Assembly: GCA_964500125.1 (NCBI GenBank)
Contig: CAZCMV010000003.1
Span: 11,523 to 75,522, forward strand
Direction: 5' to 3'
Length of the DNA: 64,000 bases
Source of the DNA: an uncultured Bdellovibrionales bacterium
GTDB taxonomy: Bacteria > Patescibacteriota > Minisyncoccia > Moranbacterales > GWC2-37-73
Made by a program: the position numbers and the translations under genes. Of this stretch, positions 1-39,036 are shown in pieces; the stretch's first letter is position 1; each line of letters begins with the position of its first letter. The notes beneath the pieces were generated by a model that was not told the origin of the DNA, made no database searches, and saw nothing but the letters and a program-made list of their open reading frames with translations.

Positions 1-2211
1 GAAGCGGTGGAGACGGTAAAGGGGCCGCTTTTGATTATTGCCGGAGCGGGATCAGGCAAGACCAAGACGTTGACACACCGCGTCGCATATTTGATTCAAA
101 ATGCCAAAGTGAGGTCGCAAAATATCTTAGCGGTTACTTTCACCAATAAAGCTGCGCAAGAAATGCGCGAACGAATCGGCAAAATCCTTGGTGTTGTTGG
201 TGATGTTAGGGGGATGCGGGGAATGTATAATTCGAAGCTGCCACTGATCGGAACATTCCATTCGATTTGTGTGCGGATTTTGCGCAGTGAAATTGAAATG
301 CTCGGTTATGCCAAGTCATTTCACATTCTGGATGATCAAGATCAGCAAGCTTTGATGAAGCGAGTGATGAAAGAATTGGAAATTGATACAACCCAGTTTC
401 ATCCCAAAGCATTTTTAGGTGCGATCAGTAATGCTAAGAATGATTTGATTGAGGCTGAGCAATTTGCCCAAGAGGCGAACGGTTATTACGAAGAACTGGT
501 TGCGAAAACTTTTGTTAAATATCAACAAGAATTGAAAGCAAGCAATGGTTTGGATTTTGACGACATTATTTTGCTGACCGTGAAGTTGTTCAAAAAATTT
601 CCGTTGGTGCTGGAAAAATATCAGCTTATTTTTCAATTCATCATGGTTGATGAATATCAAGATACGAATAAGGCGCAATATGTGCTGGTGAATTTGTTGG
701 CGAGCAAACATCGCAATTTGTGCGTCGTGGGGGATGACTGGCAGTCGATTTACAAATTTCGCGGGGCAGATATTAAAAATATTTTGGATTTCGAAAAGGA
801 TTATCCGGAAGCAAAAGTAATTCATCTGGAACAGAATTATCGTTCATCGCAGATCATATTGGATGCGGCATATGGTGTGATCTCCAAAAACATCAATCGC
901 AAAGATAAAAAATTGTGGACAGAGAAAAAAGAAGGACACTTGATTACTTCATATGAAGCGGAGGATGAAAAAGAAGAAGCGGAATTTATTGCAAGAGAAA
1001 TAATGAATGCCAAGGGCACAAAACGCTATGCTGACTATGTTGTGCTTTATCGCACTAATGCCCAGTCACGTATGGTGGAAGAAGTTTTTTTGCGCCGCTC
1101 GATTCCGTATCGCATTATCGGGGGCATCAAATTTTATCAACGCAAAGAAATCAAAGATATGGTTGCCTATTTGCGTTTGATATTCAATAATAGCGATGTT
1201 GTTTCTTTGGAACGCATCGTCAATGAACCGAAACGCAACCTTGGAAAAGCGACGCTTGATAAATGGGTGAAGATTGCAAGAGAAATGGAAATGAATCCAA
1301 TTATAATGGGATATCGGGGAGACCTGGGAAATCAGGTTGATTCAGGATTGGGAAAAGTTAAAGTCGATGCGATTAAAAAGTTTTGTGAGTTTATTGTGAG
1401 GATGGATGAAATAAGAAACAGGATATCTTTGTCTGATTTTATTCAAAAAGTTTTTGCGGAGAGTGGCTATGAAGCGATGTTATTAAAAGAGGGAACAGAA
1501 GGAGAGGTTAGATGGGAGAATGTGAGGGAGTTAATTTCAGTTGCACAAAAATATGACAGTGAAGAAGCTAATGATGTGGAGGATAAATTAGCTGCTTTTT
1601 TGGAAGAGGTTGCGTTGGCTTCGGATGTGGATAATGTGGATCAAAATCAGGATGCAGTTCACCTTATGACCATGCACAGCGCCAAGGGCTTGGAGTTCCC
1701 AACAGTTTTTATTATCGGGCTTGAAGAAGGAATTATGCCGCACTCGCGTAGCCAGCTTTCTTATGAAGATATGGAAGAAGAGAGGCGACTCATGTATGTG
1801 GGGCTCACACGTGCCAAAGAAAAAATATATTTGTTGTTTACCAGGCAGCGAACTATTTTTGGTGCAACGCAAGTGAATCCACCGTCGAGATTTTTGGATG
1901 ATATACCGAAGGAGCTAGTGGAACGATGTGAACAAGAGATGAAATACAAGATGGAAGAAACAAGAAATAAGAAACAAGAAACAAATAAATTTCAAATTTC
2001 GAATTATAAATTTTCGAACAAATCTCAGATCTCGACTCCCAAATCTCAAGTCTCAAGCAGGGCTTCTTTCCGAGATGGAGAGAAGGTGGCGCATGGGGAG
2101 TTTGGAGAAGGAATTGTGGTTTCTTCGGATGAAGAGATTGTGACTGTGGTTTTCAAAAAAGCGGGAATAAAAAGATTAAGCAAGGAATATGCAAAATTGA
2201 AGAAAATTTAA
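1..2211 (+). CDS. pcrA: ATP-dependent DNA helicase PcrA/UvrD family. 5'-partial: the reading frame is already open at nt 1.
   Basis: Walker A 'AGAGSGKTKTLTHRVAYL' and UvrD helicase motifs throughout. C-terminal 'GEKVAHGEFGEGIVVS' Tudor-like tail typical of PcrA/UvrD. Confidence 0.85.
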   Translation, partial: EAVETVKGPLLIIAGAGSGKTKTLTHRVAYLIQNAKVRSQNILAVTFTNKAAQEMRERIGKILGVVGDVRGMRGMYNSKLPLIGTFHSICVRILRSEIEMLGYAKSFHILDDQDQQALMKRVMKELEIDTTQFHPKAFLGAISNAKNDLIEAEQFAQEANGYYEELVAKTFVKYQQELKASNGLDFDDIILLTVKLFKKFPLVLEKYQLIFQFIMVDEYQDTNKAQYVLVNLLASKHRNLCVVGDDWQSIYKFRGADIKNILDFEKDYPEAKVIHLEQNYRSSQIILDAAYGVISKNINRKDKKLWTEKKEGHLITSYEAEDEKEEAEFIAREIMNAKGTKRYADYVVLYRTNAQSRMVEEVFLRRSIPYRIIGGIKFYQRKEIKDMVAYLRLIFNNSDVVSLERIVNEPKRNLGKATLDKWVKIAREMEMNPIIMGYRGDLGNQVDSGLGKVKVDAIKKFCEFIVRMDEIRNRISLSDFIQKVFAESGYEAMLLKEGTEGEVRWENVRELISVAQKYDSEEANDVEDKLAAFLEEVALASDVDNVDQNQDAVHLMTMHSAKGLEFPTVFIIGLEEGIMPHSRSQLSYEDMEEERRLMYVGLTRAKEKIYLLFTRQRTIFGATQVNPPSRFLDDIPKELVERCEQEMKYKMEETRNKKQETNKFQISNYKFSNKSQISTPKSQVSSRASFRDGEKVAHGEFGEGIVVSSDEEIVTVVFKKAGIKRLSKEYAKLKKI

Positions 2212-2263
2212 AAAATAAGACAGATAAGACTGATAGGACATATTGTTAATGCTTTTAAATAAG

Positions 2264-2291
2264 AAAAAGTGACACCGGTGTGTCATTTTTT
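2264..2291. terminator. Bidirectional intrinsic terminator between convergent pcrA and xerC.
   Basis: A-tract, stem AGTGACAC / GTGTCATT with loop CGGT, then T-tract. Overlaps the xerC stop codon. Confidence 0.5.
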
Positions 2292-3194
2292 CTTACTGTG
2301 GAATTTTTTGTGGATATCCTTGAGTCCCTGGTTGGTAACATGAGTGTAGATTTGGGTGGTGGTGATGGATGAATGCCCAAGCATTGCTTGCACGGATCTT
2401 ATGTCGGCACCGTTGGCAAGTAGGTCTGTTGCAAAACTGTGGCGCAAAGTGTGCGGATGCACATCTTTGACGATGCCGGCTTTAGTCGCATATTTCTTGA
2501 CGATTCTTTGGATGGAGCGTGGAGTTAAATTTGCACTTCCGTCCGAATATATGACTGCATTTCTGGAAAAACGGACAAAAAGAGCGTCATCTATGTCGAT
2601 TCGTTTTTCTGAATATTTTTCCAATGCTTTTTTGGCGCTATCGGAAATAAAAACGACGCGTATTTTGTTTCCTTTGCCGCGGATACTGAATTCTTGACGG
2701 TCAAGATTGATTTGATTGCGTTTGAGAGAGGATATTTCGGAAACACGCAGACCTGAAGAAAAAAGCAGCTCCAAAATAGCTCGGTCGCGCAACGATTTTA
2801 CATCAGAACTGCTGGCACTTTCCAATAATCTTGTTACTTCTTCTGCTTGCAGAAACCCGACTTCATTGGCGGGATTTTTCCCTACATCTATTTTTTCGGC
2901 TGAAAGTGAAGCTATATCCCTTTTGGCAAGATATTTGAGAAAGTTGCGCAGAGCAATGATATGGTAGTTTTGGGTTGCTTTTTTGAGCGTTTGATTGGTT
3001 TCATCTGTAAGTCGGTTAAGATATAGACGATAACTGCGAACTAAATCAGCACTGATTTGGTCGGGCTTGTTTATTTTTGCCCAATCGAAAAAACGTTTCA
3101 GATAATGACTGTAGTTTTCAATGGTTTTAGGCGAGCGATTGAGCTCTATTTCGAGATATTCAAGATAGTCGCATAGGAGCTTTTGAAGATTCAT
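2283..3194 (-). CDS. xerC: Tyrosine site-specific recombinase XerC/XerD.
   Basis: C-terminal catalytic motif 'HPHTLRHSFATDLLANGADIRSVQAMLGHSSITTTQIYTHV' (R..HxxR..Y). C versus D cannot be distinguished. Confidence 0.8.
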   Translation of the reverse strand: MNLQKLLCDYLEYLEIELNRSPKTIENYSHYLKRFFDWAKINKPDQISADLVRSYRLYLNRLTDETNQTLKKATQNYHIIALRNFLKYLAKRDIASLSAEKIDVGKNPANEVGFLQAEEVTRLLESASSSDVKSLRDRAILELLFSSGLRVSEISSLKRNQINLDRQEFSIRGKGNKIRVVFISDSAKKALEKYSEKRIDIDDALFVRFSRNAVIYSDGSANLTPRSIQRIVKKYATKAGIVKDVHPHTLRHSFATDLLANGADIRSVQAMLGHSSITTTQIYTHVTNQGLKDIHKKFHSKKK

Positions 3195-3442: not shown

Positions 3443-4663
3443 TTGGAAGGATTGCGTACTATTAGTACCAAACAACGTTTTCAAAAAATTAGGCGGCTTT
3501 TTCGTGCTGTTGATGCAAACAAGCTTCATACCAAACTTTATATATATCAACGGGCGATTGCTGATTTTATTAAAAGGCATCGCAGCGTAAAATTATTACA
3601 TCTTTTACGCCATTATAGTGCTTTTGCAGTTGTTATCTCGAGCGCTCTTTTGGTGTCTGCGACGAATGCTGCATCCGGAAGGGGTGAGCAGGGAGTTCTC
3701 AATGGATATTGGGAAAATAGCACCGATTCTTCAGTTGGAGTTAAAACGAAAGGTCAAGAAAACAGAGAAAATGATCTAGCTTTGGTTCCTTTAGCTAAAG
3801 CGCCGATGGCTGTTGATCCTCAGTATAAGGAAGAAACTATTGCTCAGATGCCAAATCAAAACCAAGGATTGTATGCTTCTGCATTAATCCCCAATCAAGC
3901 CAAAGACCCTGAAGAAGACGGTGGAGTTAAAATGTATACAGTTCAGGAAGGTGATACGATAAGCTCAATAGCTCTCAAGAACAAGATTTCTATTAACACA
4001 ATTCTTTGGGCCAATGACATTGATAATGTAGATTCTATAATGCCGGGAGATACAATATTTATCTTGCCGGTTTCAGGACTTTCGCACAAAGTGAAAAGTG
4101 GGGACACTATTGATTCTATTGCGGCAAAATATAAAGCTGATCGTGGCAGGATTATCGCCTTCAATGAACTCCCGGCGAACGGTGATTTGAAAGTTGGTGA
4201 GGACATTGTTATTCCTGACGGTCAAGGTGTAGCGCCTCAACAAACCACCGAATCTTCAAATCAGGGGACTGGTATTGAAAGAAGACAATATGCCACATCG
4301 ACTGGAGGAACGCCGGAAGTCTCCAGTGGCAAGGTACTTGGTGGTAAGGCTGGTGCCGGTCACAAATTTCCATATGGCTATTGCACATGGTATATTGCCC
4401 AAAAACGTTATGTTCCTTGGGGTGGAAATGCCGGAACCTGGCTTTATCATGCTAAATCCATGGGATATGCGACCGGAAGGAAACCGCGTCCGGGAGCGAT
4501 TATGGTTACAACGGAAAGTCGTTATTATGGCCACGTTGCTTTGGTAGAAAAAGTAAGTGGTGATACGATTACTGTTTCGGAAATGAATTATGTCGGTTGG
4601 GGTAAGAAAAGCAGGCGAACTATTTCTGCCTCAAGCAGGGTGATCAAGGGCTTTATATATTAG
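3443..4663 (+). CDS. Secreted peptidoglycan hydrolase: N-terminal signal/TM, two LysM domains, C-terminal CHAP (NlpC/P60-like) domain.
   Basis: LysM repeats ('YTVQEGDTISSIA', 'HKVKSGDTIDSIAAKY'). CHAP-like 'GYCTWYIAQ...YGHVALVEKV' with Cys/His. TTG start in the ORF track; exact start uncertain. Confidence 0.7.
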   Translation: MEGLRTISTKQRFQKIRRLFRAVDANKLHTKLYIYQRAIADFIKRHRSVKLLHLLRHYSAFAVVISSALLVSATNAASGRGEQGVLNGYWENSTDSSVGVKTKGQENRENDLALVPLAKAPMAVDPQYKEETIAQMPNQNQGLYASALIPNQAKDPEEDGGVKMYTVQEGDTISSIALKNKISINTILWANDIDNVDSIMPGDTIFILPVSGLSHKVKSGDTIDSIAAKYKADRGRIIAFNELPANGDLKVGEDIVIPDGQGVAPQQTTESSNQGTGIERRQYATSTGGTPEVSSGKVLGGKAGAGHKFPYGYCTWYIAQKRYVPWGGNAGTWLYHAKSMGYATGRKPRPGAIMVTTESRYYGHVALVEKVSGDTITVSEMNYVGWGKKSRRTISASSRVIKGFIY

Positions 4664-4751
4664 GATAAACTGCAATAAAAATGAAACACACAAGGCAACG
4701 TTTGATCGTTGTCTTGTTTTTGTTTTGGTGGTTATGTGATATAATTATTTT

Positions 4752-6800
4752 GTGCATAGCTACAAAAAAATAGTTGAAAATAAAAATCACCCATTATTTC
4801 CGTTTATGGATTTTTTCCGCAGAAATAGAAAAACAGCCATATCATTACTCGCTATTTTTATCGTGAGTTTTTTGGGTGTATTCACAACTTTCAATCACGC
4901 TGACGCTGTGTTAATCCCTACTTATTATGCCGCTAAAGTTCTCACATCGGGGGCTTCTGGTGCTGGTGAAGCTATGGGGAACATGCTAGTAGTTGGCATA
5001 AAATACATTCTTGGTGCAATTCTTACTTTTGTCGGATGGCTGTTAATAATACCGGGAGTAATGCTGGATGCTCTTTTGAAAGTAGAAAACAATGCTTTAT
5101 ATTTGGACAGCACGGCAGTGCGAGAAGTTTGGGTAATGGTGCGCGATTTTCTCAATCTTTTTTTCATTTTCACCCTTCTTTTTTCAGCTTTTGCAACCAT
5201 TTTTCAGATCGAAAAATATCATATCAAAAAAATTATCGTCAAAATAATCATTATGGCTCTTTTGGTGAATTTCAGCTTTCCCATAGCCAGGTTTTTTATT
5301 GATATTTCTAATGTGATGATGTATTGGTTGCTCAATAATATATTTGGTGGTTCAGAAGGAGCAAGCATTGCTGCAACGCTAGCGTCAAGTTCTGGCTTAA
5401 AGGACTTGCTTATTCCTGAAAGAGCTGCTGAATATCAAGTACCGTATCTTATCGCAGCAATAATATTTACTTTTATCTTCGGCATTACTTTAATGATGAT
5501 CGCGGTATTATTTTTAGTAAGACTTATTGTTCTTTCTGTTTTGGTGATGTTTTCACCGGTTGGTTTTGTGGGTTATGTTTTTCCAGACACAGCAAAATAT
5601 GCCAAACAATGGTGGGATATGCTCTTGAAATATTCTTTTTTTGCTCCAATAATGACTTTCGGATTAGCAGTCACACTTAAAATGATGCAAAGTCTTGGTG
5701 CTAATAGTAGTGCCATGAGTAGTTTCAGAAAAGCGGCGGAAGATAACAGTGCAAATGTTGGAGCTGACGCAAATTGGATAGCGGCGGCAGCTTTTTTCAT
5801 TGTTCCGATAGTGATTCTCTGGATGTTCATGGGAGTTGCGCAGAAATTCAGCATTGAATTTGCAGGTGATGTACAGAAAAGGGGACAGGATTTGGCAAAA
5901 TGGGCCGGAAAACAACCATGGAGAGGAACAAAAGCATTGGTAAATGCCACTGGTGTCCCTGGTGGCGTAAAGGCGGGAATAGCAAAGTTCCAAAAGAGCG
6001 GTACACTTTTTGGTGTTAAAGTTTCGAGATATGGCGGAACAGATGCGCGTGAGGCGCGTGAGGCCCAATGGGCGGGATTGATGACGGGTGGTTCTTCTGG
6101 TATGAGATCTGCTACAGAAAACAGGAGGCGCAAACTTATTGCGGACAAAATGGAAGAATATAAAAAATCAGGACTGGGAGCAAGTCAGATTGAGAGAGAT
6201 CTTACGTCTAATGATGAGGTTACACGAATTGCGGCCGCGATGCACATGAATGAAAAAGGCGATCTCAATAATATTGATAGAATGAAAAAGGCACTTGCTG
6301 CTGTAGGTAATGATGCTGAAGCGCGAACTAAGATTGTTGATAAAATCGAAAATGTAGGCGCTATTTTCGAGAATAAGGATCATTACAATGATGCACTGGT
6401 AAGTGCACTTGATGGGATAGATGTGTCAACTTCTGATGGAAAACAAAAGGCTGATAAGATAAGAAAAAGTTTTGAAGCGAAGATGAAGAAAGAGAATCGC
6501 ATGGATCTTATCTTGGATCATGACGTGAAGTATGGTGTGCTTGATGCAAATTCATTTGCTTATGGAAAAACTGAAAAAGAAATATATGAAGAGCGTCTGG
6601 GCTCCCTTAATGCTGAAGGTCTTGGAAAGCAGCACAAGTTGCATAGCAAAATAGGAACAAATACTAATCTTCAAAACTTTATATTAGACAATATCGCTGG
6701 CGATTATCAGCGACATCAGGAAATGCACAGACACCTGAGTATTTCAAATCAAAGAAAATACGCTGACGAAGGTTTTGATCCAGGACCTACTCCTCCATAA
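4752..6800 (+). CDS. Polytopic membrane protein, VirB6/TrbL-like (putative type IV secretion / DNA-transfer channel component), with a C-terminal hydrophilic tail.
   Basis: Signal-like N-terminus and at least 6 predicted TM helices, then a charged roughly 300-aa tail. Lies immediately upstream of three pilin-like genes. Family assignment is by architecture only. Confidence 0.35.
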   Translation: MHSYKKIVENKNHPLFPFMDFFRRNRKTAISLLAIFIVSFLGVFTTFNHADAVLIPTYYAAKVLTSGASGAGEAMGNMLVVGIKYILGAILTFVGWLLIIPGVMLDALLKVENNALYLDSTAVREVWVMVRDFLNLFFIFTLLFSAFATIFQIEKYHIKKIIVKIIIMALLVNFSFPIARFFIDISNVMMYWLLNNIFGGSEGASIAATLASSSGLKDLLIPERAAEYQVPYLIAAIIFTFIFGITLMMIAVLFLVRLIVLSVLVMFSPVGFVGYVFPDTAKYAKQWWDMLLKYSFFAPIMTFGLAVTLKMMQSLGANSSAMSSFRKAAEDNSANVGADANWIAAAAFFIVPIVILWMFMGVAQKFSIEFAGDVQKRGQDLAKWAGKQPWRGTKALVNATGVPGGVKAGIAKFQKSGTLFGVKVSRYGGTDAREAREAQWAGLMTGGSSGMRSATENRRRKLIADKMEEYKKSGLGASQIERDLTSNDEVTRIAAAMHMNEKGDLNNIDRMKKALAAVGNDAEARTKIVDKIENVGAIFENKDHYNDALVSALDGIDVSTSDGKQKADKIRKSFEAKMKKENRMDLILDHDVKYGVLDANSFAYGKTEKEIYEERLGSLNAEGLGKQHKLHSKIGTNTNLQNFILDNIAGDYQRHQEMHRHLSISNQRKYADEGFDPGPTPP

Positions 6801-6896
6801 AATAATATATCAACACCGATATTTCTCTTTGTGATGTTCAGGTTCGATGTTTTATAATCGATCAAATGAGTTATCTTTTATGTTAGTATATTCAAA

Positions 6897-8348
6897 ATGT
6901 ATAATCAAGAAAATAATCAAAAAATAACAAATCCTATATATTTTCCCATGATCACCCCTTCAGTATTTGGAAGGGCAGATTCTGCTGATGTTAGAAAAAA
7001 AAGATGGGATATTTTTAATGCTTTGCCAGAACAAGAAAAGGATAAAATCCTTGCTCCTAATGTTGCGTTTACATTGAAAAATGTGGCTGAAAAATATGAT
7101 CTTTCCGATGAAGAGGCAATGAAAATATCAAGATTGGTGCGCGAACTTTTTTTTAGAAACATCTCTAAGGAAAATATAGCGGTTGAACTGCAAAGAAGGA
7201 TCTCAAGATTGACCAATTCCGAATTAAAAGACGTGGAAAAGATTATCATATACCAAATATTAACAGCAAATACTTCTCAAATAAAAGAAGCATCTTTTAA
7301 AACAACCAATATAATCAAATTATCTTTGGAAAATGCGCTTTCTCGATATCCAAATCTTGGTGAGCAATCAATAACAGCAAATCAGTTGCGATTACGGATT
7401 ACTCCAAATCCAGTGAAACCCTCAATCAAGAATTGGATCAGTGATTATTGCGAACAAATGGGATCGGGAAAACATGAAGCATTTGATCGTGGAAATTATC
7501 TTTTTCATAGTGAGAACACAAAAATTCTGACTGCAATCGAAAGGAAGAAACTTTCACTTGTGCTTAAATCCTTGGACGAAGGCATGTTGCTTAATGTTGA
7601 TCCGGAAAAACAAGAAGTTGTGTTTGAATTAGAGGGCAGCTCTAATATTCAAATGGAAACTTCTGTTTTGCGTCAATCAATAAATCATCTTGCGAGTCGA
7701 GGTGGGCAAATGAATAGAAATGATGAGAACATAGCAAGGCGAGAAGTTGGCAGCGGACAAAAACAAGATACGAGAAAAACAGGACCCGGAACGGGTGGTA
7801 TTGGACAGGAGGGTGGTTTCATGGATGGAATGAGAACATTGAAAGAAAAAAAAGAAGTTAAAGAAACAAAAGAAATGGAAACCTCTGCGCAAACAATATT
7901 CAGACAAAGCAATTTGCGTAATTTTTCAAATCAAAATACACGTGTTACACAACAATCTGTTGACATGACTGGAGTTAATGCAATGTCGCCAAATCAAGAA
8001 ACAAAAATAAATCAGTTTTTTGGAGAAAACTCCGTGTCTGATTTTGTCGGTAAGGGAAAAACGGAAAAATTTTCGCCGAAACCACAAGTGTCTGTTCATT
8101 CCACGGCTGTTCCGTCGAACTTTGCTGATGTTATACAAAAAAAACCAAGCAATCAAACACAAGAAAAAATAATCGAAAATGCAGCAGGAGCCGCCACGCC
8201 TGCCAGGATTGTTCCAAAATCAATGTTGTCGCAAAATGCTAATGGAGGTAGTGTAAGTTTTTCTTCGCCGCAACAATTGCCCATCGAAAAAAAACAGATG
8301 CCTTCAAAAAAATCACCTTTTAGAATTGTTCCGCATGGCGATTTGTGA
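6897..8348 (+). CDS. Hypothetical protein, 483 aa; low-complexity, Q/N/K-rich C-terminal half.
   Basis: Long ORF with no recognisable motif. Sits between the VirB6-like gene and the pilin genes. Confidence 0.5.
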   Translation: MYNQENNQKITNPIYFPMITPSVFGRADSADVRKKRWDIFNALPEQEKDKILAPNVAFTLKNVAEKYDLSDEEAMKISRLVRELFFRNISKENIAVELQRRISRLTNSELKDVEKIIIYQILTANTSQIKEASFKTTNIIKLSLENALSRYPNLGEQSITANQLRLRITPNPVKPSIKNWISDYCEQMGSGKHEAFDRGNYLFHSENTKILTAIERKKLSLVLKSLDEGMLLNVDPEKQEVVFELEGSSNIQMETSVLRQSINHLASRGGQMNRNDENIARREVGSGQKQDTRKTGPGTGGIGQEGGFMDGMRTLKEKKEVKETKEMETSAQTIFRQSNLRNFSNQNTRVTQQSVDMTGVNAMSPNQETKINQFFGENSVSDFVGKGKTEKFSPKPQVSVHSTAVPSNFADVIQKKPSNQTQEKIIENAAGAATPARIVPKSMLSQNANGGSVSFSSPQQLPIEKKQMPSKKSPFRIVPHGDL

Positions 8349-8389
8349 TGAATTGTGAATTGTAAAATATGAATTATGAATTAATCAAT
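8344..8389 (+). repeat. Heptamer-period tandem repeat (tgaattg/atgaatt units) spanning the stop of the upstream gene and the start of pilin gene 1.
   Basis: tgtgatg aattgtg aattgta aaatatg aattatg aattaat. Confidence 0.6.
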
Positions 8390-8653
8390 ATAGCGTACGC
8401 AGGAGTGATTTCAAGTGCGCCAACAATTTCTCAGATAGGATTACGCATCTTGAATTTTTTGTTGTCTATTTTTTCTTTTATTGTTATAATAACAATGTTG
8501 ATATCTGGGGTTATGTATTTTTTTGCTGCAGGTAATGAAAATATGATTGAAAAAGCAAAGAAATCTTTTCAATGGGGAATTGTTGGAATGATTGTAGGGA
8601 TAACAGGATTGATAATAATAAGATTTATTTCAGGAATTTTGAATGGTAATTAA
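8369..8653 (+). CDS. Small TrbC/VirB2-like pilin, paralogue 1 (CPR-type T4SS pilin-like).
   Basis: 94 aa with two hydrophobic helices. Shares the motif 'L..WLL....GV...VISG..Y..S.GD..MI..AK......VG..VG..GL.II' with the next two genes. Confidence 0.5.
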   Translation: MNYELINIAYAGVISSAPTISQIGLRILNFLLSIFSFIVIITMLISGVMYFFAAGNENMIEKAKKSFQWGIVGMIVGITGLIIIRFISGILNGN

Positions 8654-8683
8654 AATAAAAATAAAAATGAAAGGAGGTGCGCT

Positions 8684-9034
8684 ATGAATTTAATTAAAAA
8701 TATTTCCTATTCAGTTGCTTCCGCAGCACTTATTTTGCCTGTTAGTGTTTTTGCTCAAATAAAAAACCCTGACAATACCGGGCTTCCATCAGGCTCTATT
8801 ACGGAAATTATTACGAATTTAATGAGATGGTTGTTGATGATGGTGGGAATTTTTGGTGTTATTGGTTTTGTTATTTCCGGTATTTTGTATCTTACATCTA
8901 CGGGAGATCAGACTATGATTGATCGTGCCAAGAAAGCTATGTTGTATTCAATCGTGGGCGTATTGGTTGCTTTGCTTGGTTTGGTTATTTTCGCCGCCAT
9001 GCAAAAATTACTTACTGGAGGGGGCGAATTCTGA
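8684..9034 (+). CDS. Small TrbC/VirB2-like pilin, paralogue 2.
   Basis: 116 aa with a signal peptide. Strong RBS AAAGGAGGTG upstream. Same C-terminal two-helix motif as paralogues 1 and 3. Confidence 0.55.
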   Translation: MNLIKNISYSVASAALILPVSVFAQIKNPDNTGLPSGSITEIITNLMRWLLMMVGIFGVIGFVISGILYLTSTGDQTMIDRAKKAMLYSIVGVLVALLGLVIFAAMQKLLTGGGEF

Positions 9035-9136
9035 TCAAATTTCTTGAAAAATATTTTTCACGAAAACAGGCTTCTTGGGGAGCTTGTTTTTGTTATTTTC
9101 ATGTCGTATAATTGAATCAAGAATAAAAAACAAATT

Positions 9137-9706
9137 ATGAAATTGCTTTCAAAAAATTTTTTCCTACTCTTTTTTATAGCCTTGTTTTTGTCAGTCTTAC
9201 AGGCAGAGGCGGATGATCTTCCTTACATATATAAAGATAAGGCAGAATGTACCAACAGTGGTTGCAAAAATTGCCAAGAGGTGCTAACTGCCGGATATAA
9301 GACAATACAATGTGTGAAGACACCGACAAATACAACTTCTTCTTCAAATACAACTAAACAAAGTGTTGTTTCTCCCACCTTAAGTGTAGGAGAAGCTTCT
9401 TGTGAATCTGGATTTACAATGCAAAGCGGCGTTTGCATTCCCTCAAACACCGGACTGCCAGATAAGACAGTGCAAGAGATAGCGGTTAATCTTATGAATT
9501 GGCTTTTAGGTATATTTGCTGTTTTTGGAGTAATTGCTTTTGTTATTTCCGGGATACAATATTTAGTTTCCACTGGTGATACGAAAATCATAGAAACAGC
9601 AAAGAGAAATATGGTCTATTCTGGAGTTGGGATAATTGTGGGACTCTCCGGATTGATAATAATAAAGGCCATACAAGCTATTTTTAGTGCTAATTCAGGT
9701 ATTTGA
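9137..9706 (+). CDS. TrbC/VirB2-like pilin, paralogue 3, with a Cys-rich N-terminal extension.
   Basis: 189 aa with a signal peptide. 8 Cys in the first roughly 100 aa (CTNSGCKNCQ...QCVK...CESGF..GVCIP), then the shared pilin two-helix module. Confidence 0.5.
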   Translation: MKLLSKNFFLLFFIALFLSVLQAEADDLPYIYKDKAECTNSGCKNCQEVLTAGYKTIQCVKTPTNTTSSSNTTKQSVVSPTLSVGEASCESGFTMQSGVCIPSNTGLPDKTVQEIAVNLMNWLLGIFAVFGVIAFVISGIQYLVSTGDTKIIETAKRNMVYSGVGIIVGLSGLIIIKAIQAIFSANSGI

Positions 9707-9754
9707 CATAATGTCTTTTTTTAGCTATAATGGCTTTGTGGTGGGTTTTCAGGA

Positions 9755-14718: not shown

Positions 14719-16293
14719 TTATTTTTTGCTTGTTAATATTGGCAGAAGACTTTCGCCGTTCATTTCAGAAGGTTTTTTAATTTCCAATAATTCGAGTATT
14801 GTTGGGGCTATGTCATTAAGCAGGCCACCGATTTCTCCCTGTTGTTGAACTATTTCTTCTGAAGATTTTTTATAGTGATTATCGGGAGTGATAAACCAAA
14901 GAGGGACTGGATTTGTTGAATGTTCAGTATCTATTTCTCCAGTATGAATATTTTTTAATTCCTCGACATTTCCATGGTCGGCCGTTATCAAAAGACACCC
15001 TCCTTGTGATAAAACTTTGGGAATGAGTAAGGATAAATTTTTATCAAGAGTTTTTACGGCTATTTTGCAAGCTTCATAATTTCCCGTATGACCAACCATG
15101 TCAGCATTGACGTAGTTTACTATTATAACGTCATATTTCTTTGAGTCTATTGCGTCGAGCAGTTTTTCAGTGACCAATGACGCGCTCATCTCAGGTTCTT
15201 CGTCAAATTTGGAAACTGCTGGCGAAGGAATAAGAATCCTATCTTCTCCTGGCCAGGGTTCTTCTTTGCCGCCATTAAAAAAATACGTAACATGTGCATA
15301 TTTTTCCGTCTCCGAAATACGCAATTGTCTGAGTTTGTTAGCACTTAATATTTCTCCTAATCCGTTTTTTATTTCTTCTGGACCGAAGGCTACGGATACC
15401 GGCAAATCTTTTTCGTATTCAGTCATGGTCACAAACTCGATATCCAAACTTTCTTTTTTGAATTTGTCAAAAGATGGCAGCACAAATGCTTTTGTAAGTT
15501 CACGAGCCCTGTCTTCACGGAAATTGAAAAATATAACAGAATCCCCGTTTTTTATCGTTGTGATTGGTTTGTCGTTTTCAATAAATACACTTGGCTCTAT
15601 GTATTCATCAGTTATTTCTTTGGCGTAAGAATCCTGAAGGCACCGTATTGGATCCTCAAATGGAATTCCTTTTCCTTCAGTAAGCAGTCTATATGCCTTT
15701 TCTATGCGATCCCAGTTATTATTGCGATCCATAGCCCAATTGCGTCCACAAATGGTTGCTATTCTGCCTATTCCTATTATCTGCATACGTGATTGAAGGT
15801 CTTTTATAGCTTTTGTGCCAGAAGTAGGGGAGCTGTCTCTCCCATCAGTAAAAGCATGCACAAAGAGTTTTTCGATACCGTTTGTCTTAGCCATTTCCAA
15901 GAGAGCATATAAATGTTCCATATATGCATGAACACTTCCTTCACCGATTAGTCCCATGATATGCAAAGCAGAATCCTTTTCTTTTGCGTTGTTTATTGCC
16001 TTAAGCAAAGAGGGATTGCTAAAAAAAGTTTTGTCCTGCACAGAGAGTGTTATGCGTGGCAAATGCTGATATATTATTTTGCCCGAACCAATAGCCATAT
16101 GTCCAACTTCACTGTTTCCACTTTCTCCCCAAAAAAGACCTACTGAAATTCCCGAAGCCTGGAGTGTTGTCATTGGATAAAACTGCTCAAGTTTCTCTAT
16201 TGTGGGGAGTTCTGTTTCTTTCAAAACATTTCCTTGCGAATTATTGCTTAATCCCCAGCCATCAAGAACAACTAAAACAATGGGTTTATACAT
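14719..16293 (-). CDS. gpmI: 2,3-bisphosphoglycerate-independent phosphoglycerate mutase.
   Basis: 'IVLVVLDGWG' N-terminus, 'ITADHGN' metal-binding context; about 520 aa, typical of iPGM. Confidence 0.85.
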   Translation of the reverse strand: MYKPIVLVVLDGWGLSNNSQGNVLKETELPTIEKLEQFYPMTTLQASGISVGLFWGESGNSEVGHMAIGSGKIIYQHLPRITLSVQDKTFFSNPSLLKAINNAKEKDSALHIMGLIGEGSVHAYMEHLYALLEMAKTNGIEKLFVHAFTDGRDSSPTSGTKAIKDLQSRMQIIGIGRIATICGRNWAMDRNNNWDRIEKAYRLLTEGKGIPFEDPIRCLQDSYAKEITDEYIEPSVFIENDKPITTIKNGDSVIFFNFREDRARELTKAFVLPSFDKFKKESLDIEFVTMTEYEKDLPVSVAFGPEEIKNGLGEILSANKLRQLRISETEKYAHVTYFFNGGKEEPWPGEDRILIPSPAVSKFDEEPEMSASLVTEKLLDAIDSKKYDVIIVNYVNADMVGHTGNYEACKIAVKTLDKNLSLLIPKVLSQGGCLLITADHGNVEELKNIHTGEIDTEHSTNPVPLWFITPDNHYKKSSEEIVQQQGEIGGLLNDIAPTILELLEIKKPSEMNGESLLPILTSKK

Positions 16294-19721: not shown

Positions 19722-20378
19722 ATGAAAAGAAATATACTTAGGGTAGACAAAAAAGAAAAAATGCGAAAGGAATGTGCAAAAATTATTGTGCGTGAACTTA
19801 GAAAACTTTTTCCTGATGCAAAAATAGCTCTCAACTTTTCCAATAGCTGGGAGCTTTTGGTTGCAGTTATTTTGAGCGCGCAGTGCACGGACAAAAAAGT
19901 AAATGAAGTGACGGAGAAACTTTTCAAAAAATACAAAACATTAAATGATTACGTGCGTGCAAATATAAAGGAATTTGAAAAAGATATTTATCAAACCGGA
20001 TTTTATCGGGCCAAAGCAAAGAATATTTTAGCCTCAGCGAAGATTATAAAAAATCGCCATAAGGGCAAAATTCCGTGTTCTATGGAGGAAATGATCGAAT
20101 TGCCAGGAGTTGCCCGCAAGACGGCGAATATAGTGCTCCAGGCGGTTTGTGGGGTAGTCGTAGGCATTCCAGTGGACACGCATGTGAAAAGGTTATCAAA
20201 ACTTCTTGGTCTTACGGATAACACTGATCCAGTGAAAATCGAAAAAGATTTAATGGAACTTTTGCCCGAAAAAGAATGGGGAACAATATCGTACCGCCTT
20301 ATTGAATACGGCCGGCAATATTGCCCAGCAAAGAAACATGACCATGATAAATGTCCCTTAACTATAGCTTTGAAATAA
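19722..20378 (+). CDS. nth: Endonuclease III (DNA glycosylase/AP lyase).
   Basis: HhH-GPD 'LVAVILSAQCTD', 'ELPGVARKTANIVL'; C-terminal 4Fe-4S Cys cluster. RBS GGAGGT. Confidence 0.85.
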   Translation: MKRNILRVDKKEKMRKECAKIIVRELRKLFPDAKIALNFSNSWELLVAVILSAQCTDKKVNEVTEKLFKKYKTLNDYVRANIKEFEKDIYQTGFYRAKAKNILASAKIIKNRHKGKIPCSMEEMIELPGVARKTANIVLQAVCGVVVGIPVDTHVKRLSKLLGLTDNTDPVKIEKDLMELLPEKEWGTISYRLIEYGRQYCPAKKHDHDKCPLTIALK

Positions 20379-35464: not shown

Positions 35465-36196
35465 TTACTGAATTGTCCAACCTCCATCGACCACGATAAC
35501 TTGTCCGGTAATGTAGCTGGATTTTTCAGATGCTAAGAAAACGACCGCATTGGCAATGTCTTCAGGTTCTCCCATCCGCTTAAGTGGAACTCCGGCCACC
35601 GTTTGCTTTTCAGCCTCTTCGTTTGATTGGGCGCCGGGTGTTCTGATCGCTCCGGGAGCAACGGAGTTGACAGTGATCTTTTTCGGGGCAAGTTCCAATG
35701 CTAAAGCTCTTATCATTCCATTGACTCCGCCCTTGGAGGCACAGTAATGAACTAATCCGGAAAATCCCTGGATCGAGGCGATTGATGAAACGTTGATGAT
35801 TCTTCCTCCCTCCGGCATTGTTTTGATCGCTTCTTTGGTGCAAAAGAAGACTCCTTTCATATTGACATCCATGACCTTATCCCAATCTGATTCCTGCATT
35901 TGTTCGAAAGGAGTGAATGGATATATCCCAGCATTGTTGACCAGGACATTGACTCGTCCGAATTCTTTCGCAGTCTGCGCAAAAAGATCGGCAACTTCTT
36001 CGGATTTTGAAATATCGCATTTGATTGCGATTGATTTTGCTCCAAGCTGGGCTATTTCTTCAGTAACCTGCTTGGCGTTTTCAACATTAAGGTCGGCCAC
36101 TACAACGTTATAGCCGATTTTGGCCATTTCTAGAGCTATGCCCCTTCCAATACCTACTCCGGCTCCTGTGACGATAGCCGTTTTTCTGTTTTGCAT
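35465..36196 (-). CDS. Short-chain dehydrogenase/reductase (FabG-like 3-oxoacyl-ACP reductase family).
   Basis: 'TGAGVGIGRGIALEMA' Rossmann motif, 'NAG', catalytic 'YCASKGGVNGMIRALALE'. Confidence 0.75.
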   Translation of the reverse strand: MQNRKTAIVTGAGVGIGRGIALEMAKIGYNVVVADLNVENAKQVTEEIAQLGAKSIAIKCDISKSEEVADLFAQTAKEFGRVNVLVNNAGIYPFTPFEQMQESDWDKVMDVNMKGVFFCTKEAIKTMPEGGRIINVSSIASIQGFSGLVHYCASKGGVNGMIRALALELAPKKITVNSVAPGAIRTPGAQSNEEAEKQTVAGVPLKRMGEPEDIANAVVFLASEKSSYITGQVIVVDGGWTIQ

Positions 36197-36343
36197 TTTT
36201 TTGTTTTTTACTTGTTATGAAATAAAAAGACGGGAAGTACCCATCTTTTCTCATCTTCTTCAATTATAGCACAAATTTTCACCAAAGTCTAGACTGTGTA
36301 CTTAAAGGTAGCAGAAGGGAACATGGATAACACTTCAAAGTCT

Positions 36344-37984
36344 CTACTTTTTCAATTCCAGGACTATTTTGAATCTTGGAATCTGCAAGACATCAAAACC
36401 TATGAGTGTTATTTGCTTATTCTCGTTTAAATTTTTGTTCAAAATATCAAGAGGGATGCCATTATAGACCGAAACTTCTTCAATCCGGAAGTTTTCCAGT
36501 CGTTTTGTTAGTTCTTCTTTTGAAACCCAATTTCCCATTGTCTGATTCGTTGCGCTAGTCCACTTTTTTACTTTAGGAATTAAATCGATCGCATCAAGAA
36601 CTTTTGTTTCTTTAGGATAAATAATTTCATAAATGTTTGAGTTCAAATTTTTATAATCAGGAGTTGATAAATATGCGCGCAGTGAATTAATCCCGCTATC
36701 TTTAACCAATTCAAAGTCTTTTTCCGCAATCTCTGAGGTTTTGATAATTCCTCTATCATGGATATTTTTTTCTGGACTTCCCCAAAGTTTTGTTTGTTTT
36801 TCATTGGAAAGAGCCCCGAATTCTTCCAGGGAAGCAAGTCCGCTAGATGTTCCATCCAAGGTGGCATCTTTTTCAAAAGGATAATAACTGAAAGCCCCTT
36901 CTTGGGGGATATAGAACTTTTCAAATTTAACATTAATATATTTTTCAACCAGCTTTTTTGCATTTTGTTTATTCTCATCGGAAGCATTTTTCCATAAGTA
37001 TCTGGTGAGTGTTCGCAGTCCTTTGGGAGTCTCAAGCCCCCATTCATGCCATTCATCCAGGTCATCTTTGCCTTCTGGAGTTGCTTTTTCTAATTCTGTA
37101 AGCACTGACTGAAATAATTCATCCCTGTATCTTAGCGGAAATTCTTCATAAATATCATTTCCTTCGCTATCAACAAATGTTTTTAATATTGGCGCGGTAT
37201 TGCTGACATCCATCTTTACTAATTTTCCATCTTTTGATTTTGGCCCCCAAAGCCCTGTTTCCGGGTCTTGATAATTATAAGCCCACTCTAGCAGTGCGTG
37301 CTTCCATTCAGGGGAAAAATTATAAAGATTATGTTTCTGGACCATGCTCACTTCATCTTCATTATGATGTTCATAATCTCTGGCCAGACTTATCAAATCC
37401 CGAACATTATGAAAAGAAGTTTGAGGAAATTTCAAGGCTAACCATCCGACAGTGGACCAATCTTCCAGAATAGGAATAAGTTTTTCCGTAGTATTAAAAT
37501 TATCCAAGAAATATAAAGGATATTTTAGTTTCAAAGGTTGTCCAGTCTCCTTTGCCAAAGCATCAAGATGCAGCAAAACATTTTCAGTTGTTTTATAGTA
37601 AGTGTTTAAGGGATAAGAATCATCTATGAACGCTCCGGTCTTTGGATTCTGCAGGCTAAGATAAAAATCAAACTCTTCCTCTTTTGTTTTGAATTCAGGC
37701 ATTTTAACGAGACCTTCTCGGGTTTTCATCTGATAATGCAACTCATTAAGCTTTTTTATTGCGGTATAATAATGCCCTTTATCCAACCAGTAAGATATAC
37801 CCAGCATTTTGAATTCAAATTCTGCCATGTAATAATTTTCCTCCTGAAGTTCTTTGTTTAAGCGGAACATTTCTTTTACTTGTGATTTTGTATGCAACAC
37901 TACGAGGGTTAATAAGAGGGAAGTAATGACAAACAGCATCAAGGCAATCAGAGTTTTTTTATGTTTGATATTTTCTATTTTCAT
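36344..37984 (-). CDS. Hypothetical membrane-anchored protein, 546 aa (N-terminal TM, large extracytoplasmic domain).
   Basis: Long ORF with Trp/Tyr-rich extracytoplasmic region; no recognised motif. Confidence 0.5.
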   Translation of the reverse strand: MKIENIKHKKTLIALMLFVITSLLLTLVVLHTKSQVKEMFRLNKELQEENYYMAEFEFKMLGISYWLDKGHYYTAIKKLNELHYQMKTREGLVKMPEFKTKEEEFDFYLSLQNPKTGAFIDDSYPLNTYYKTTENVLLHLDALAKETGQPLKLKYPLYFLDNFNTTEKLIPILEDWSTVGWLALKFPQTSFHNVRDLISLARDYEHHNEDEVSMVQKHNLYNFSPEWKHALLEWAYNYQDPETGLWGPKSKDGKLVKMDVSNTAPILKTFVDSEGNDIYEEFPLRYRDELFQSVLTELEKATPEGKDDLDEWHEWGLETPKGLRTLTRYLWKNASDENKQNAKKLVEKYINVKFEKFYIPQEGAFSYYPFEKDATLDGTSSGLASLEEFGALSNEKQTKLWGSPEKNIHDRGIIKTSEIAEKDFELVKDSGINSLRAYLSTPDYKNLNSNIYEIIYPKETKVLDAIDLIPKVKKWTSATNQTMGNWVSKEELTKRLENFRIEEVSVYNGIPLDILNKNLNENKQITLIGFDVLQIPRFKIVLELKK

Positions 37985-38183
37985 AGATATATTTTTATAG
38001 ATTTAAATCATCTATTTGTTCTGCAATTATATCATTACACCTTTAAAATAGAAAAACTCAAATTTCGCTTGAGCGTCCGAAATAAAGACTAATTAAAAAC
38101 ATTTCATATAGCCCCATTTTTGGAATTGCTATCTTTGATTTTTAAAAAAGCAAAAACCACTCAAAAAGAGTGATTTCATATAT

Positions 38184-38258
38184 TGGCTCCGCGACCAGGA
38201 CTCGAACCTGGAACCAATTGGTTAACAGCCAACTGCTCTACCATTGAGCTATCGCGGA
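38184..38258 (-). tRNA. tRNA-Asn (anticodon GTT), CCA encoded.
   Basis: Acceptor TCCGCGA/TCGCGGA. D-arm GCTC-AATGGTA-GAGC. Anticodon loop CTGTTAA. T-arm CCAGG-TTCGAGT-CCTGG. 3' GCCA. Confidence 0.8.
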
Positions 38259-38500
38259 ATATGTTTTTTAATAAATTCTCTCCCTCTATAGCTTTTAAGC
38301 TGTTTTTCTCTTGCTAATGCCTCTGATCTTGAATTTACTTTTTCACTATAAATCAGCTCCCACTTTCCATCAAATCTTGAAGTATAACTGTGAGGAAAAC
38401 CTTTGCTATTATGTAGAGCTAGTCTTATTGTCAAATCTTCACATTGACCAATGTAAATCTTATTATGTTTATCATTATAAATGGCATATATATGATACAT
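38249..38500 (-). CDS. GIY-YIG nuclease-domain protein, about 83 aa. Its last 3 codons overlap the tRNA-Asn 5' end.
   Basis: 'MYHIYAIYNDKHNKIYIGQCEDLTIRLALHN' GIY...YIG motif with conserved Arg/Glu downstream. Start set at MYHIY; the track ORF extends 35 codons upstream through the palindrome. Confidence 0.55.
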   Translation of the reverse strand: MYHIYAIYNDKHNKIYIGQCEDLTIRLALHNSKGFPHSYTSRFDGKWELIYSEKVNSRSEALAREKQLKSYRGREFIKKHIPR

Positions 38501-38527
38501 GCCACCATAATAGCAGAACTGCTCTAC

Positions 38528-38543
38528 CTCCGCCAGCTGGCGG
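38528..38543. repeat. 16-bp perfect palindrome TCCGCCAGCTGGCGGA (copy 1; identical copy at about 43547-43562).
   Basis: Exact self-complementarity. Confidence 0.7.
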
Positions 38544-38558
38544 AGAGCTATCGCGGAA
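38544..38558 (-). repeat. 15-bp direct repeat of the tRNA-Asn 5' end (GAGCTATCGCGGAAT). Partner copy at 38246-38260 within the tRNA.
   Basis: Exact 15/15 match, same orientation, about 298 bp apart, bracketing the GIY-YIG gene. Confidence 0.7.
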
Positions 38559-38791: not shown

Positions 38792-38797
38792 AATTGC

Positions 38798-39031: not shown

Positions 39032-39036
39032 GTTAT

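What the first reader, a model, noticed from the sequence alone, without database searches (positions are those of the whole stretch)
4752..9706. T4SS-like cluster: VirB6/TrbL-like membrane protein, a 483-aa unknown, and three tandem TrbC/VirB2-like pilin paralogues
Three adjacent small genes (94, 116 and 189 aa) share a clear two-helix pilin-like module. Its consensus is L..WLL...GV...VISG..Y..S.GD..MI..AK......VG..VG..GL.II. They sit directly behind a 682-aa polytopic membrane protein whose architecture, a signal followed by more than 6 TM helices and a hydrophilic tail, matches VirB6/TrbL. In reduced-genome episymbiotic bacteria such pilin/VirB6 sets are thought to mediate DNA uptake or host-cell contact. 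No VirB4/VirD4 ATPase is in the window, so the ATPases must be elsewhere or the set is a minimal pilus module. The low-complexity 483-aa protein in the middle is unassigned and could be a new component.
Basis: partly seen in the sequence, partly recalled or inferred. Interest (0 to 1): 0.6.

Follow-up and report, generated by a model that had tools for sequence, protein, structure and literature searches.

The report
Pilin half of a Patescibacteria T4SS
This is one half of the chromosomal type IV secretion system already described in ultra-small Patescibacteria: a VirB6-like channel protein, three pilin genes and a tightly linked protein of unknown fold, with the motor ATPase lying just outside the window.

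Summary
Five co-directional genes lie at 4752-9706, and all three small ones pass Pfam's T4SS_pilin (PF18895) cutoff.

The "missing" ATPase exists. A contig that overlaps the window's first 2,378 bp at 100% identity carries two more pilin genes, PrgI/VirB3, a TrsD-like protein and a CD1110-family VirB4. That VirB4 ends 4.7 kb left of the window start.

The organism is a Moranbacteria-type patescibacterium. This monoderm-derived, pilin-bearing T4SS has already been published (Wang 2023; Quinonero-Coronel 2025), so the cluster is a new member of a known kind.

The fresh element is the 483-aa protein:
- Its family has at least 845 clusters at 50% identity and no Pfam, NCBIfam or solved-structure match.
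- It has a folded 245-residue N-terminal half and a basic, disordered tail.
- It lies within two genes downstream of virB6 in 47 of 47 testable loci.
- In other lineages it sits between virB6 and prgI-trsD-virB4.

It is probably an undescribed lineage-specific T4SS component. No T4CP or relaxase was found in the roughly 75 kb examined.

The parts
4752..6800 (+). Extended VirB6-like polytopic membrane protein (682-aa ORF; probable true start at M19 = 4806, giving 664 aa). The membrane core is residues ~71-387 (nt 4962-5912). The C-terminal all-helical solenoid (ARM/HEAT-like) is residues ~440-680 (nt 6069-6791).
6897..8348 (+). 'Family X': a 483-aa soluble protein with no TM segment and no known domain. 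Residues ~10-245 are folded (nt 6924-7631). The most conserved core is at residues ~140-245 (KNWIxDY...GxGKH...DRGNYLFHSEN). Residues 250-483 form a basic (pI 9.9) disordered tail ending in a conserved SFSSPQxLPxEK motif.
8369..8653 (+). VirB2-like pilin paralogue 1 (94 aa). It has a very short leader ending AYA|G.
   Evidence: PF18895 26.9 bits against a cutoff of 26.6. Two TM helices. Orthologues in L002, L004, L006, L007 and L008 keep the A-x-A|G[VA]I[ST][SD]A motif.
8684..9034 (+). VirB2-like pilin paralogue 2 (116 aa), the candidate major pilin. It has a Sec-type signal (…VFA|QIK), the only canonical Shine-Dalgarno sequence in the cluster, its own promoter-like site and a hairpin terminator downstream.
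   Evidence: PF18895 36.9 bits. AAAGGAGG upstream of the ATG. Among the three pilins, its length is the most constant across relatives (116-122 aa), at 58-75% identity. Expression signals.
9137..9706 (+). VirB2-like pilin paralogue 3 (189 aa). A signal peptide is followed by an ~80-residue extension with six Cys and a Ser/Thr-rich stretch (nt 9212-9451), then the pilin core (nt 9452-9703).
   Evidence: PF18895 32.6 bits at residues 110-179. Cys at 38, 43, 46, 59, 89 and 100. Orthologues (226-392 aa) have extensions of variable length but keep the C-x2-G-[FY]-x4-5-G-V-C-[IFM]-P…TGL motif just before the core.
9060..9093 (+). 15-bp hairpin plus T-run between pilin-116 and pilin-189 (intrinsic-terminator-like, possibly an attenuator).
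   Evidence: The same position carries a hairpin in L006 (19079-19112) and in L002 (14293-14324, with a different sequence).
8462..8490 (+). TG-extended -10 promoter-like site inside the pilin-94 gene, upstream of pilin-116.
   Evidence: TTGTCT-17-TATAAT with TG. Equivalent sites occur in L006 (18421-18449) and L002 (13673-13701). This is a consensus match only.
4690..4717 (+). 11-bp hairpin plus T-run separating the LysM/CHAP gene from the VirB6-like gene. It is the likely left boundary of the transcription unit.
   Evidence: An equivalent hairpin occurs in L006 at 14763-14786.
3443..4663 (+). LysM(x2)-CHAP peptidoglycan hydrolase. It is a possible VirB1-like helper, but the link to the T4SS is not established.
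   Evidence: PF01476 and PF05257. It lies within three genes upstream of virB6 in 15 of 19 pilin-type loci but in only 1 of 7 contiguous-operon loci. A terminator-like hairpin separates it from virB6.

Best explanation
The cluster is the distal half of a chromosomal, monoderm-type (MPF-FATA-derived) type IV secretion system of a Moranbacteria-like patescibacterium.

The proximal half lies 4.7-9.2 kb left of the window start on the same chromosome. It encodes two more pilin-domain proteins, PrgI/VirB3, a TrsD-like VirB4 N-terminal fragment, a CD1110-family VirB4 ATPase and a 319-aa unknown. Six other genes separate the two halves: ComM, a G5/DPBB protein, KsgA, UvrD, XerC and LysM/CHAP.

Inferred mechanism, by analogy with the R388 structure:
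- The three VirB2-like pilins are inserted into the membrane as helical hairpins.
- The VirB6-like protein forms the membrane platform where pilins are extracted and polymerised. The VirB3/VirB4 motor drives this.
- Pilin-116 is the likely major subunit, because it has its own promoter-like site, a strong ribosome-binding site and a terminator.
- Pilin-189, with its Cys-rich N-terminal extension, is a likely minor, surface-decorating or adhesive subunit.
- Family X (483 aa) is an obligatory partner of VirB6 in this lineage. It is most likely a cytoplasmic adaptor or a translocated substrate.

The machine most likely mediates contact or exchange with a host cell rather than conjugation. The homologous system is essential for epibiotic growth in Southlakia, and no relaxase or coupling protein lies nearby.

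Shown here: gene identities, fold, synteny and the presence of VirB4. Inferred: pilus formation, the roles of individual pilins, the role of X, and the biological function.
For: - Pilins: PF18895 above the cutoff for all three, and paralogy E-values of 6e-13 to 5e-30.
- Same-genome VirB4 block: L163 overlaps window 1-2378 at 100% identity. It carries PF18895 x2, PF12666 PrgI, a TraC-like/TrsD protein and VirB4. The VirB4 scores 372.9 bits against the NF045971 cutoff of 325.
- Conserved arrangement in L002, L006, L007 and L008.
- X lies between virB6 and either pilins or prgI-trsD-virB4 in 73 non-redundant metagenome loci.
- Literature: Patescibacteria T4SS, VirB2 arrays and VirB6 (PMC12102498). 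Essentiality, and ARM-repeat VirB6-like proteins, in Southlakia (PMC10633639). Review (PMC12857230).
- Expression signals.
Against: - This copy of the VirB6-like protein has no significant Pfam or NCBIfam hit, and the family profile finds no VirB6 among PDB sequences. Foldseek's E-value is only 0.038.
- No T4CP/VirD4, VirB11, VirB8-like protein or relaxase was found in the window plus L163, about 75 kb.
- No pilus has ever been seen for this system. Promoter and terminator calls are only consensus matches.
- Function is extrapolated from a different class (Saccharimonadia), which lacks family X.
- The membrane topology of the C-terminal domain is unresolved.
Confidence: 0.8

Rival explanations
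1. It is a DNA-uptake (ComB-like) T4SS. The pilus and VirB6 channel would import environmental or host DNA as a nucleotide or gene source for an organism that cannot make nucleotides.
For: A ComM-type (Mg-chelatase-like) gene follows the VirB4 block directly in the window's own genome and in L002, L006, L007 and L008. No relaxase or T4CP is nearby, which fits import rather than export. VirB4 also gives weak hits to archaeal Ced DNA-import ATPases.
Against: The ComM adjacency sits in a run of housekeeping genes (KsgA, UvrD) and is absent from the contiguous-operon lineages. In Southlakia, competence depends on ComEC and type IV pili, and loss of ComEC is not lethal whereas loss of the T4SS is (PMC12857230). 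The Ced hits are far below cutoff (51 bits against 700).
Confidence: 0.1
2. It is a remnant or active part of an integrated conjugative element that transfers DNA between cells.
For: VirB4 is of the CD1110 conjugative family. A tyrosine recombinase gene (2283-3194, minus strand) lies two genes upstream. The pilins give weak hits to a Mycoplasma ICE pilin-like family.
Against: - The same gene order, embedded among UvrD, NusA, trigger factor and ClpP, is kept in relatives whose UvrD is 66-84% identical.
- Base composition is not distinctive: GC is 0.35-0.40 against 0.34-0.43 for the window.
- No relaxase or T4CP is present.
- The recombinase is a conserved XerC-like gene in all relatives.
- The published survey finds relaxases in only 103 Patescibacteria genomes.
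Confidence: 0.05
3. The VirB2-like proteins do not build an extended pilus. They would form only a short membrane-proximal conduit, or act as membrane proteins unrelated to filament formation, with the paralogues providing variation for different hosts.
For: Monoderm T4SSs normally lack pili. No pilus has been imaged. The PF18895 scores are modest, one being only 0.3 bits above the cutoff. Arrays of divergent paralogues are also read as antigenic or host-range variation.
Against: The two-helix hairpin with the conserved G-rich second helix is the pilin architecture. The signal peptides, the VirB6 platform fold and the signs of separate high expression for one paralogue all fit a polymerising major subunit.
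Confidence: 0.2

Closest known systems
Patescibacteria chromosomal T4SS (Southlakia epibionticum SEML1_0006-0019; survey of Quinonero-Coronel et al. 2025)
   Same: Both have an MPF-FATA-like VirB4, PrgI/VirB3 and a TrsD-like protein. Both have extended VirB6-like proteins with a C-terminal ARM-like helical domain and arrays of divergent PF18895 pilins. Neither has a relaxase or T4CP nearby. Both are chromosomal with housekeeping neighbours, including KsgA.
   Different: - Here the locus is split in two by six other genes.
- There are 3 + 2 pilin genes rather than a single array of six.
- There is one VirB6-like gene rather than two.
- No NTF2/VirB8-like gene or lysozyme gene was recognised next to VirB4.
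- Family X is present, and I saw no counterpart for it in the parts of the Southlakia gene tables that I read.
TrwI/VirB6 of the R388 conjugative T4SS (PDB 7O3V, 8RT9, 8RTD) and Pfam TrbL/VirB6 (PF04610)
   Different: Sequence identity is only 13-14%, and this copy has no significant HMM hit. It carries an extra C-terminal solenoid of about 240 residues. It comes from a monoderm, which has no VirB5, VirB7, VirB9 or VirB10 partners.
Gram-positive conjugative T4SSs (pCF10 Prg, CTn2 CD1110 family, Mycoplasma ICE)
   Same: The VirB4 family (NF045971, above cutoff), PrgI, TrsD and a VirB6-like membrane protein are shared. The pilins give weak hits to the Mycoplasma ICE pilin-like family NF045849.
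   Different: Those systems are mobile, carry a relaxase and T4CP, use adhesins, and generally lack VirB2-type pilin arrays.

Membership tests
T4SS_pilin (Pfam PF18895; VirB2-like pilins) | HMM score at or above the curated gathering cutoff (26.6 bits) | tested here: met
   26.9, 36.9 and 32.6 bits for the 94-, 116- and 189-aa proteins. The first is marginal.
T4SS_pilin (Pfam PF18895; VirB2-like pilins) | Small protein whose core is a hairpin of two hydrophobic helices, preceded by a leader or signal peptide | tested here: met
   Each protein has two hydrophobic segments. The 116- and 189-aa proteins have Sec-like signals. The 94-aa protein has only an 11-residue leader ending AYA|G, so its processing is unclear.
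T4SS_pilin (Pfam PF18895; VirB2-like pilins) | Encoded with a VirB4-containing T4SS locus | tested here: met
   VirB4 is on the same chromosome, eight genes upstream of virB6.
T4SS_pilin (Pfam PF18895; VirB2-like pilins) | Polymerises into a pilus | not testable with these tools
   No multimer prediction or imaging was available.
TrbC/VirB2 (Pfam PF04956) | HMM hit | tested here: not met
   None of the three proteins hit it at E <= 1. Some Southlakia pilins hit both PF18895 and PF04956.
VirB6/TrbL (Pfam PF04610) | HMM score at or above the gathering cutoff (25.9 bits) | tested here: not met
   The window protein has no hit at E <= 1. The L006 orthologue scores 16.3 bits. However, 23 of 50 homologues match at E <= 0.01, the best at 1.3e-07, and many carry precomputed PF04610/PF19590 hits.
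VirB6/TrbL (Pfam PF04610) | VirB6 membrane-core fold | tested here: met
VirB6/TrbL (Pfam PF04610) | Polytopic membrane protein (5 or more TM helices) encoded in a T4SS locus | tested here: met
   About seven hydrophobic segments. Linked to virB4, prgI and pilins in the window's own genome and in relatives.
Patescibacteria / MPF-FATA-type T4SS | VirB4 signature ATPase of the monoderm conjugative type | tested here: met
   L163 4347-6167 scores 372.9 bits on NF045971 (cutoff 325). It is contiguous with the window.
Patescibacteria / MPF-FATA-type T4SS | PrgI/VirB3-like and TrsD-like partners next to VirB4 | tested here: met
   PrgI: PF12666 on L163 (precomputed) and 37 bits against a cutoff of 27 on the L006 orthologue. 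TrsD: PF26593 TraC-like and NF041427 at 28 bits, far below its cutoff of 200. The TrsD part therefore rests on a weak match.
Patescibacteria / MPF-FATA-type T4SS | Coupling protein (VirD4/TcpA) and relaxase, as required for conjugation | tested here: not met
   Neither occurs among the scanned ORFs of the window or in L163. The rest of the genome could not be searched.
Integrative conjugative element | Mobile island with variable presence, flanking repeats and distinct composition | tested here: not met
   The locus keeps the same housekeeping neighbours across species, and its GC content is not distinctive. Flanking repeats were not specifically searched.

The most novel reading that the evidence does not exclude
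Family X (483 aa here) would be a previously undescribed, obligatory component of the T4SS of Moranbacteria/Paceibacteria-type Patescibacteria. It would have a new fold and a basic disordered tail. The tail's conserved C-terminal motif would dock onto the ARM-like C-terminal solenoid of the extended VirB6. X would act either as the substrate-recruiting adaptor that stands in for the missing coupling protein, or as the system's principal translocated substrate.
Probability: 0.35. Interest if true: 0.6.

Novelty: new member of a known kind. Interest (0 to 1): 0.4.

Why it matters
The T4SS is one of the few machines shown to be essential for the epibiotic life of Patescibacteria, and neither what it transports nor how it works without a coupling protein is known.

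This locus adds a clean Moranbacteria example with a split architecture. It offers a plausible major and minor pilin assignment that metatranscriptomics or cryo-ET could test.

It also flags a large, unannotated protein family that is wedged between virB6 and the VirB3/VirB4 genes or the pilin array. That family is a concrete candidate for a missing adaptor or substrate. Defining it would improve annotation of thousands of CPR genomes.

Tried and rejected
- **Direct HMMs on the 682-aa protein.** Pfam and NCBIfam scans gave only noise (DAGK, SARAF).
- **Family profile against PDB sequences.** No VirB6 was found, only helical-repeat noise on the tail.
- **Getting the flank through XerC.** An exact-sequence look-up of the XerC-like protein found nothing on record. 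The look-up of P0001 returned only a 5.3-kb contig.
- **X as a winged-helix DNA binder.** The helix-helix-helix-hairpin order at residues 177-241 and weak integrase- and repressor-like hits suggested this. All hits are sub-threshold and the core is not basic (pI 6.1), so I did not adopt it.
- **Split X gene.** I considered whether the ~131-144-aa ORF between virB6 and X in ten lineages is a detached N-terminal domain of X. It is not: it has no similarity to the X N-terminus and is a distinct conserved small protein.
- **LysM/CHAP as the VirB1 of the system.** This is not established. The association is specific to the lineage with this gene order (15 of 19 loci against 1 of 7) and a terminator-like hairpin intervenes.
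- **Membrane topology of the VirB6 C-terminal domain.** The positive-inside rule (a K/R-rich segment at residues 369-440) suggests it is cytoplasmic, but helix counting is ambiguous. I left this open.


Full report
**1. Observation**

The three small proteins (94, 116 and 189 aa) share a C-terminal module of about 75-84 residues.
- Pairwise BLASTP gives 32-54% identity, with E from 6e-13 to 5e-30.
- Each module has two hydrophobic helices.

The 682-aa protein has a basic N-terminus and about seven hydrophobic segments between residues 26 and 368. A hydrophilic tail of about 310 residues follows.

Two corrections are needed.
- The public gene call for the 682-aa ORF is 664 aa, which fits a start at M19 (window 4806; my inference).
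- The 483-aa protein is "low-complexity" only in its C-terminal half.

**2. Identity of the parts**

*Pilins.* All three small proteins pass the curated cutoff of Pfam PF18895 (T4SS_pilin): 26.9, 36.9 and 32.6 bits against 26.6. None hits PF04956 (TrbC). All give sub-threshold hits to the Mycoplasma ICE pilin-like family NF045849.

*VirB6-like protein.* The 682-aa protein has no significant Pfam or NCBIfam hit of its own. Three lines of evidence still place it with VirB6.
- It has 336 scored homologues. The named ones are Candidatus Moranbacteria or Patescibacteria, and many carry precomputed PF04610 (TrbL/VirB6) or PF19590 (TrbL_3) hits.
- When 50 family members were scanned individually, 23 matched PF04610, the best at E 1.3e-07.

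Residues ~440-680 form a very confident all-helical solenoid whose weak matches are ARM/HEAT and designed repeat proteins. The protein is therefore an "extended VirB6", a class noted in the 2025 review (PMC12857230). The VirB6-like proteins of Southlakia epibionticum likewise carry ARM-repeat C-terminal domains (PMC10633639 supplement).

**3. The ATPase question**

No ATPase or relaxase is in the window. Relatives then showed where to look.
- In a relative whose VirB6-like protein is 59% identical (L002), the same gene order runs UvrD, XerC, LysM/CHAP, VirB6-like, X, three pilins, NusA, DHH, trigger factor, ClpP.
- In L002 this run is preceded, about 9.5 kb upstream of virB6, by a DUF87/P-loop_TraG protein.
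- Loci centred on UvrD from species-representative genomes showed the full upstream block in L006, which was then annotated. L007 and L008 share parts of it by BLAST.
- In L006 that block runs: pilin, a protein with two pilin domains, PrgI (PF12666), a TrsD-like protein, a CD1110-family VirB4 and a ~312-aa unknown. ComM, KsgA and UvrD follow.

I then searched with the L006 VirB4. One hit, P0298, is 90% identical, comes from the same sources, and has the same longest-contig length (88,066 bp) as the window's own proteins. Its Logan contig, L163, overlaps window 1-2378 at 100% identity over 2,378 bp. So L163 extends the window's own chromosome 10.9 kb to the left.

In order, L163 carries:
- a solute-binding protein;
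- a 141-aa pilin;
- a 325-aa pilin-domain protein;
- PrgI (171 aa);
- a TraC-like/TrsD protein (228 aa);
- VirB4 (606 aa);
- a 319-aa unknown;
- ComM, a G5/DPBB protein, KsgA and UvrD.

The VirB4 scores 372.9 bits on NF045971 against a cutoff of 325. It ends 4.7 kb left of window position 1, about 9.5 kb upstream of virB6.

The cluster is therefore not an ATPase-less pilus module. It is the distal half of a split T4SS locus. No T4CP, VirB11, VirB8-like protein or relaxase was seen in the roughly 75 kb available.

**4. The 483-aa protein (family X)**

- *No match to any known family.* It has no TM segment. It has no Pfam or NCBIfam hit, either alone or across 91 diverse members, where no family was hit more than once. 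Its profile finds no significant PDB sequence.
- *Family size and conservation.* An exhaustive profile search of 1.84 billion representative proteins finds 845 members, 631 of them at E <= 1e-30. The most conserved stretch is residues ~140-245, with N179, W180, N207 and R216 invariant across 91 sequences. A C-terminal SFSSPQxLPxEK motif is also conserved. The tail is basic, with pI 9.9.

The gene neighbourhood is the strongest evidence. The scan returned 77 metagenome loci centred on X, of which 73 are non-redundant.

| Position relative to X | Loci that could be judged | Result |
|---|---|---|
| Upstream | 47 | virB6-like immediately upstream in 37; one small ORF between in the other 10 |
| Downstream | 52 | pilin array in 26 (5 more after one ORF); prgI-trsD-virB4-p312 in 16; other genes in 5 |

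The same virB6-X adjacency holds in all 8 independent loci from the window and its relatives. X therefore sits inside the T4SS operon in lineages where the locus is contiguous.

The parts of the Southlakia gene tables that I read show no counterpart. The passages of the 2025 survey that I read, and targeted term searches of it, do not mention such a family.

Its function is unknown. I consider a cytoplasmic adaptor or a translocated substrate most likely, because the tail is basic and disordered with a conserved terminus and the partner VirB6 has a peptide-binding-type solenoid. This is inference only.

**5. Expression architecture** (consensus scans only)

- A hairpin plus T-run at 4690-4717 separates the LysM/CHAP gene from virB6.
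- Pilin-116 has the only canonical Shine-Dalgarno sequence in the cluster.
- A TG-extended promoter-like site lies inside pilin-94, at 8462-8490.
- A 15-bp hairpin terminator at 9060-9093 follows pilin-116.
- The promoter-like site and the post-pilin hairpin recur at the same places in L006 and L002, and the L002 hairpin has a different sequence.

These signals suggest that pilin-116 is the separately and highly expressed major subunit.

Pilin-189 carries an N-terminal extension with six Cys. In orthologues the extension varies in length, but a C…GVC-[IFM]-P…TGL motif before the core is kept. This suggests a minor, surface-decorating subunit.

No RNA genes lie in the cluster.

**6. Comparison with what is known**

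This is the Patescibacteria T4SS described by Wang et al. 2023 and surveyed by Quinonero-Coronel et al. 2025.
- In Southlakia the system is essential and includes a six-gene pilin array.
- The survey describes VirB4 related to MPF-FATA, with TrsD, PrgI and VirB6, and 441 VirB2 arrays of 2-11 genes.
- Relaxases are rare and T4CPs are usually distant. KsgA is common nearby.

The present locus fits on every tested point. It differs in four details: the split by six other genes, the 3 + 2 distribution of pilin genes, a single VirB6, and the presence of family X.

An ICE origin is unlikely, because gene order is conserved among housekeeping genes across species and composition is unremarkable. A DNA-uptake role cannot be excluded, since ComM is adjacent. 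The Southlakia genetics summarised do not favour it.

**7. Verdict**

The cluster is a new member of a known kind. The main added value is family X, a large unannotated family that is invariably linked to the T4SS. The second is the location of the VirB4 block just off the window.

Noticed in passing
L163 7187-8722 (window's own genome, left of the window); also L002 1573-3099 and L006 6470-8002: A ComM-type (Mg-chelatase-like) gene directly follows the VirB4-p319 block in this lineage. ComM acts in natural transformation elsewhere, so the adjacency could hint at a DNA-related role. It could equally be plain housekeeping synteny.
   Followed up: partly
L163 2115-3092; L006 1349-2341: A 325-330-aa protein next to PrgI carries PF18895 pilin domains behind a Cys-rich N-terminal extension. 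The L006 copy shows two tandem domains. This is an unusual fused double pilin.
   Followed up: partly
L100 9055-9462, L122 9435-9842, L153 9003-9398 and seven other loci: In ten lineages a conserved ~131-144-aa soluble protein (motif AGLTEKxIEYFAKxAP…MDxD…NQxRIKxVIQYIxDN) is inserted between virB6 and family X. It is absent from this window and is unrelated to the X N-terminus.
   Followed up: partly
L141 14450-18536; L120 14176-17968: In contiguous-operon lineages, VirB4 is followed by conserved proteins of ~130-190 aa, ~220 aa and ~880 aa without significant Pfam hits, and then by pilin-like genes. These are further unannotated candidate T4SS parts.
   Followed up: partly
window 54969-59427 (minus strand): A full-length AcrB-type RND transporter (1120 aa, 627 bits) lies next to a HlyD-type membrane-fusion protein. 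This is a notable pairing for a presumed monoderm with a reduced genome.
   Followed up: no
window 41633-49586: A run of probable surface proteins: a Big_13 Ig-like protein, a weak sub-cutoff match to the WxL-interacting peptidoglycan-binding domain, and a 957-aa protein with an SO2946-like C-terminal domain. Several neighbouring ORFs have no Pfam hit.
   Followed up: no
window 36000-41400: This is the lowest-GC stretch of the window (0.34-0.36), with reversed GC skew. It holds a 546-aa orphan ORF, tRNA-Asn (38184-38258), a Fic-domain protein (39037-40200) and a NYN-domain protein (40655-41377). It may be an acquired islet.
   Followed up: no
L006, L009, L017, L020 and other loci: Several MAG records that are clearly Moranbacteria-like by synteny and protein identity are titled 'uncultured Bdellovibrionales bacterium' in the public record. 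This looks like a taxonomic mislabel.
   Followed up: no
window 9703-9731: A perfect 12/12 sigma-70 consensus promoter (TTGACA-17-TATAAT) starts in the last codons of pilin-189 and lies upstream of nusA. L006 has the same site at 19774-19802.
   Followed up: partly
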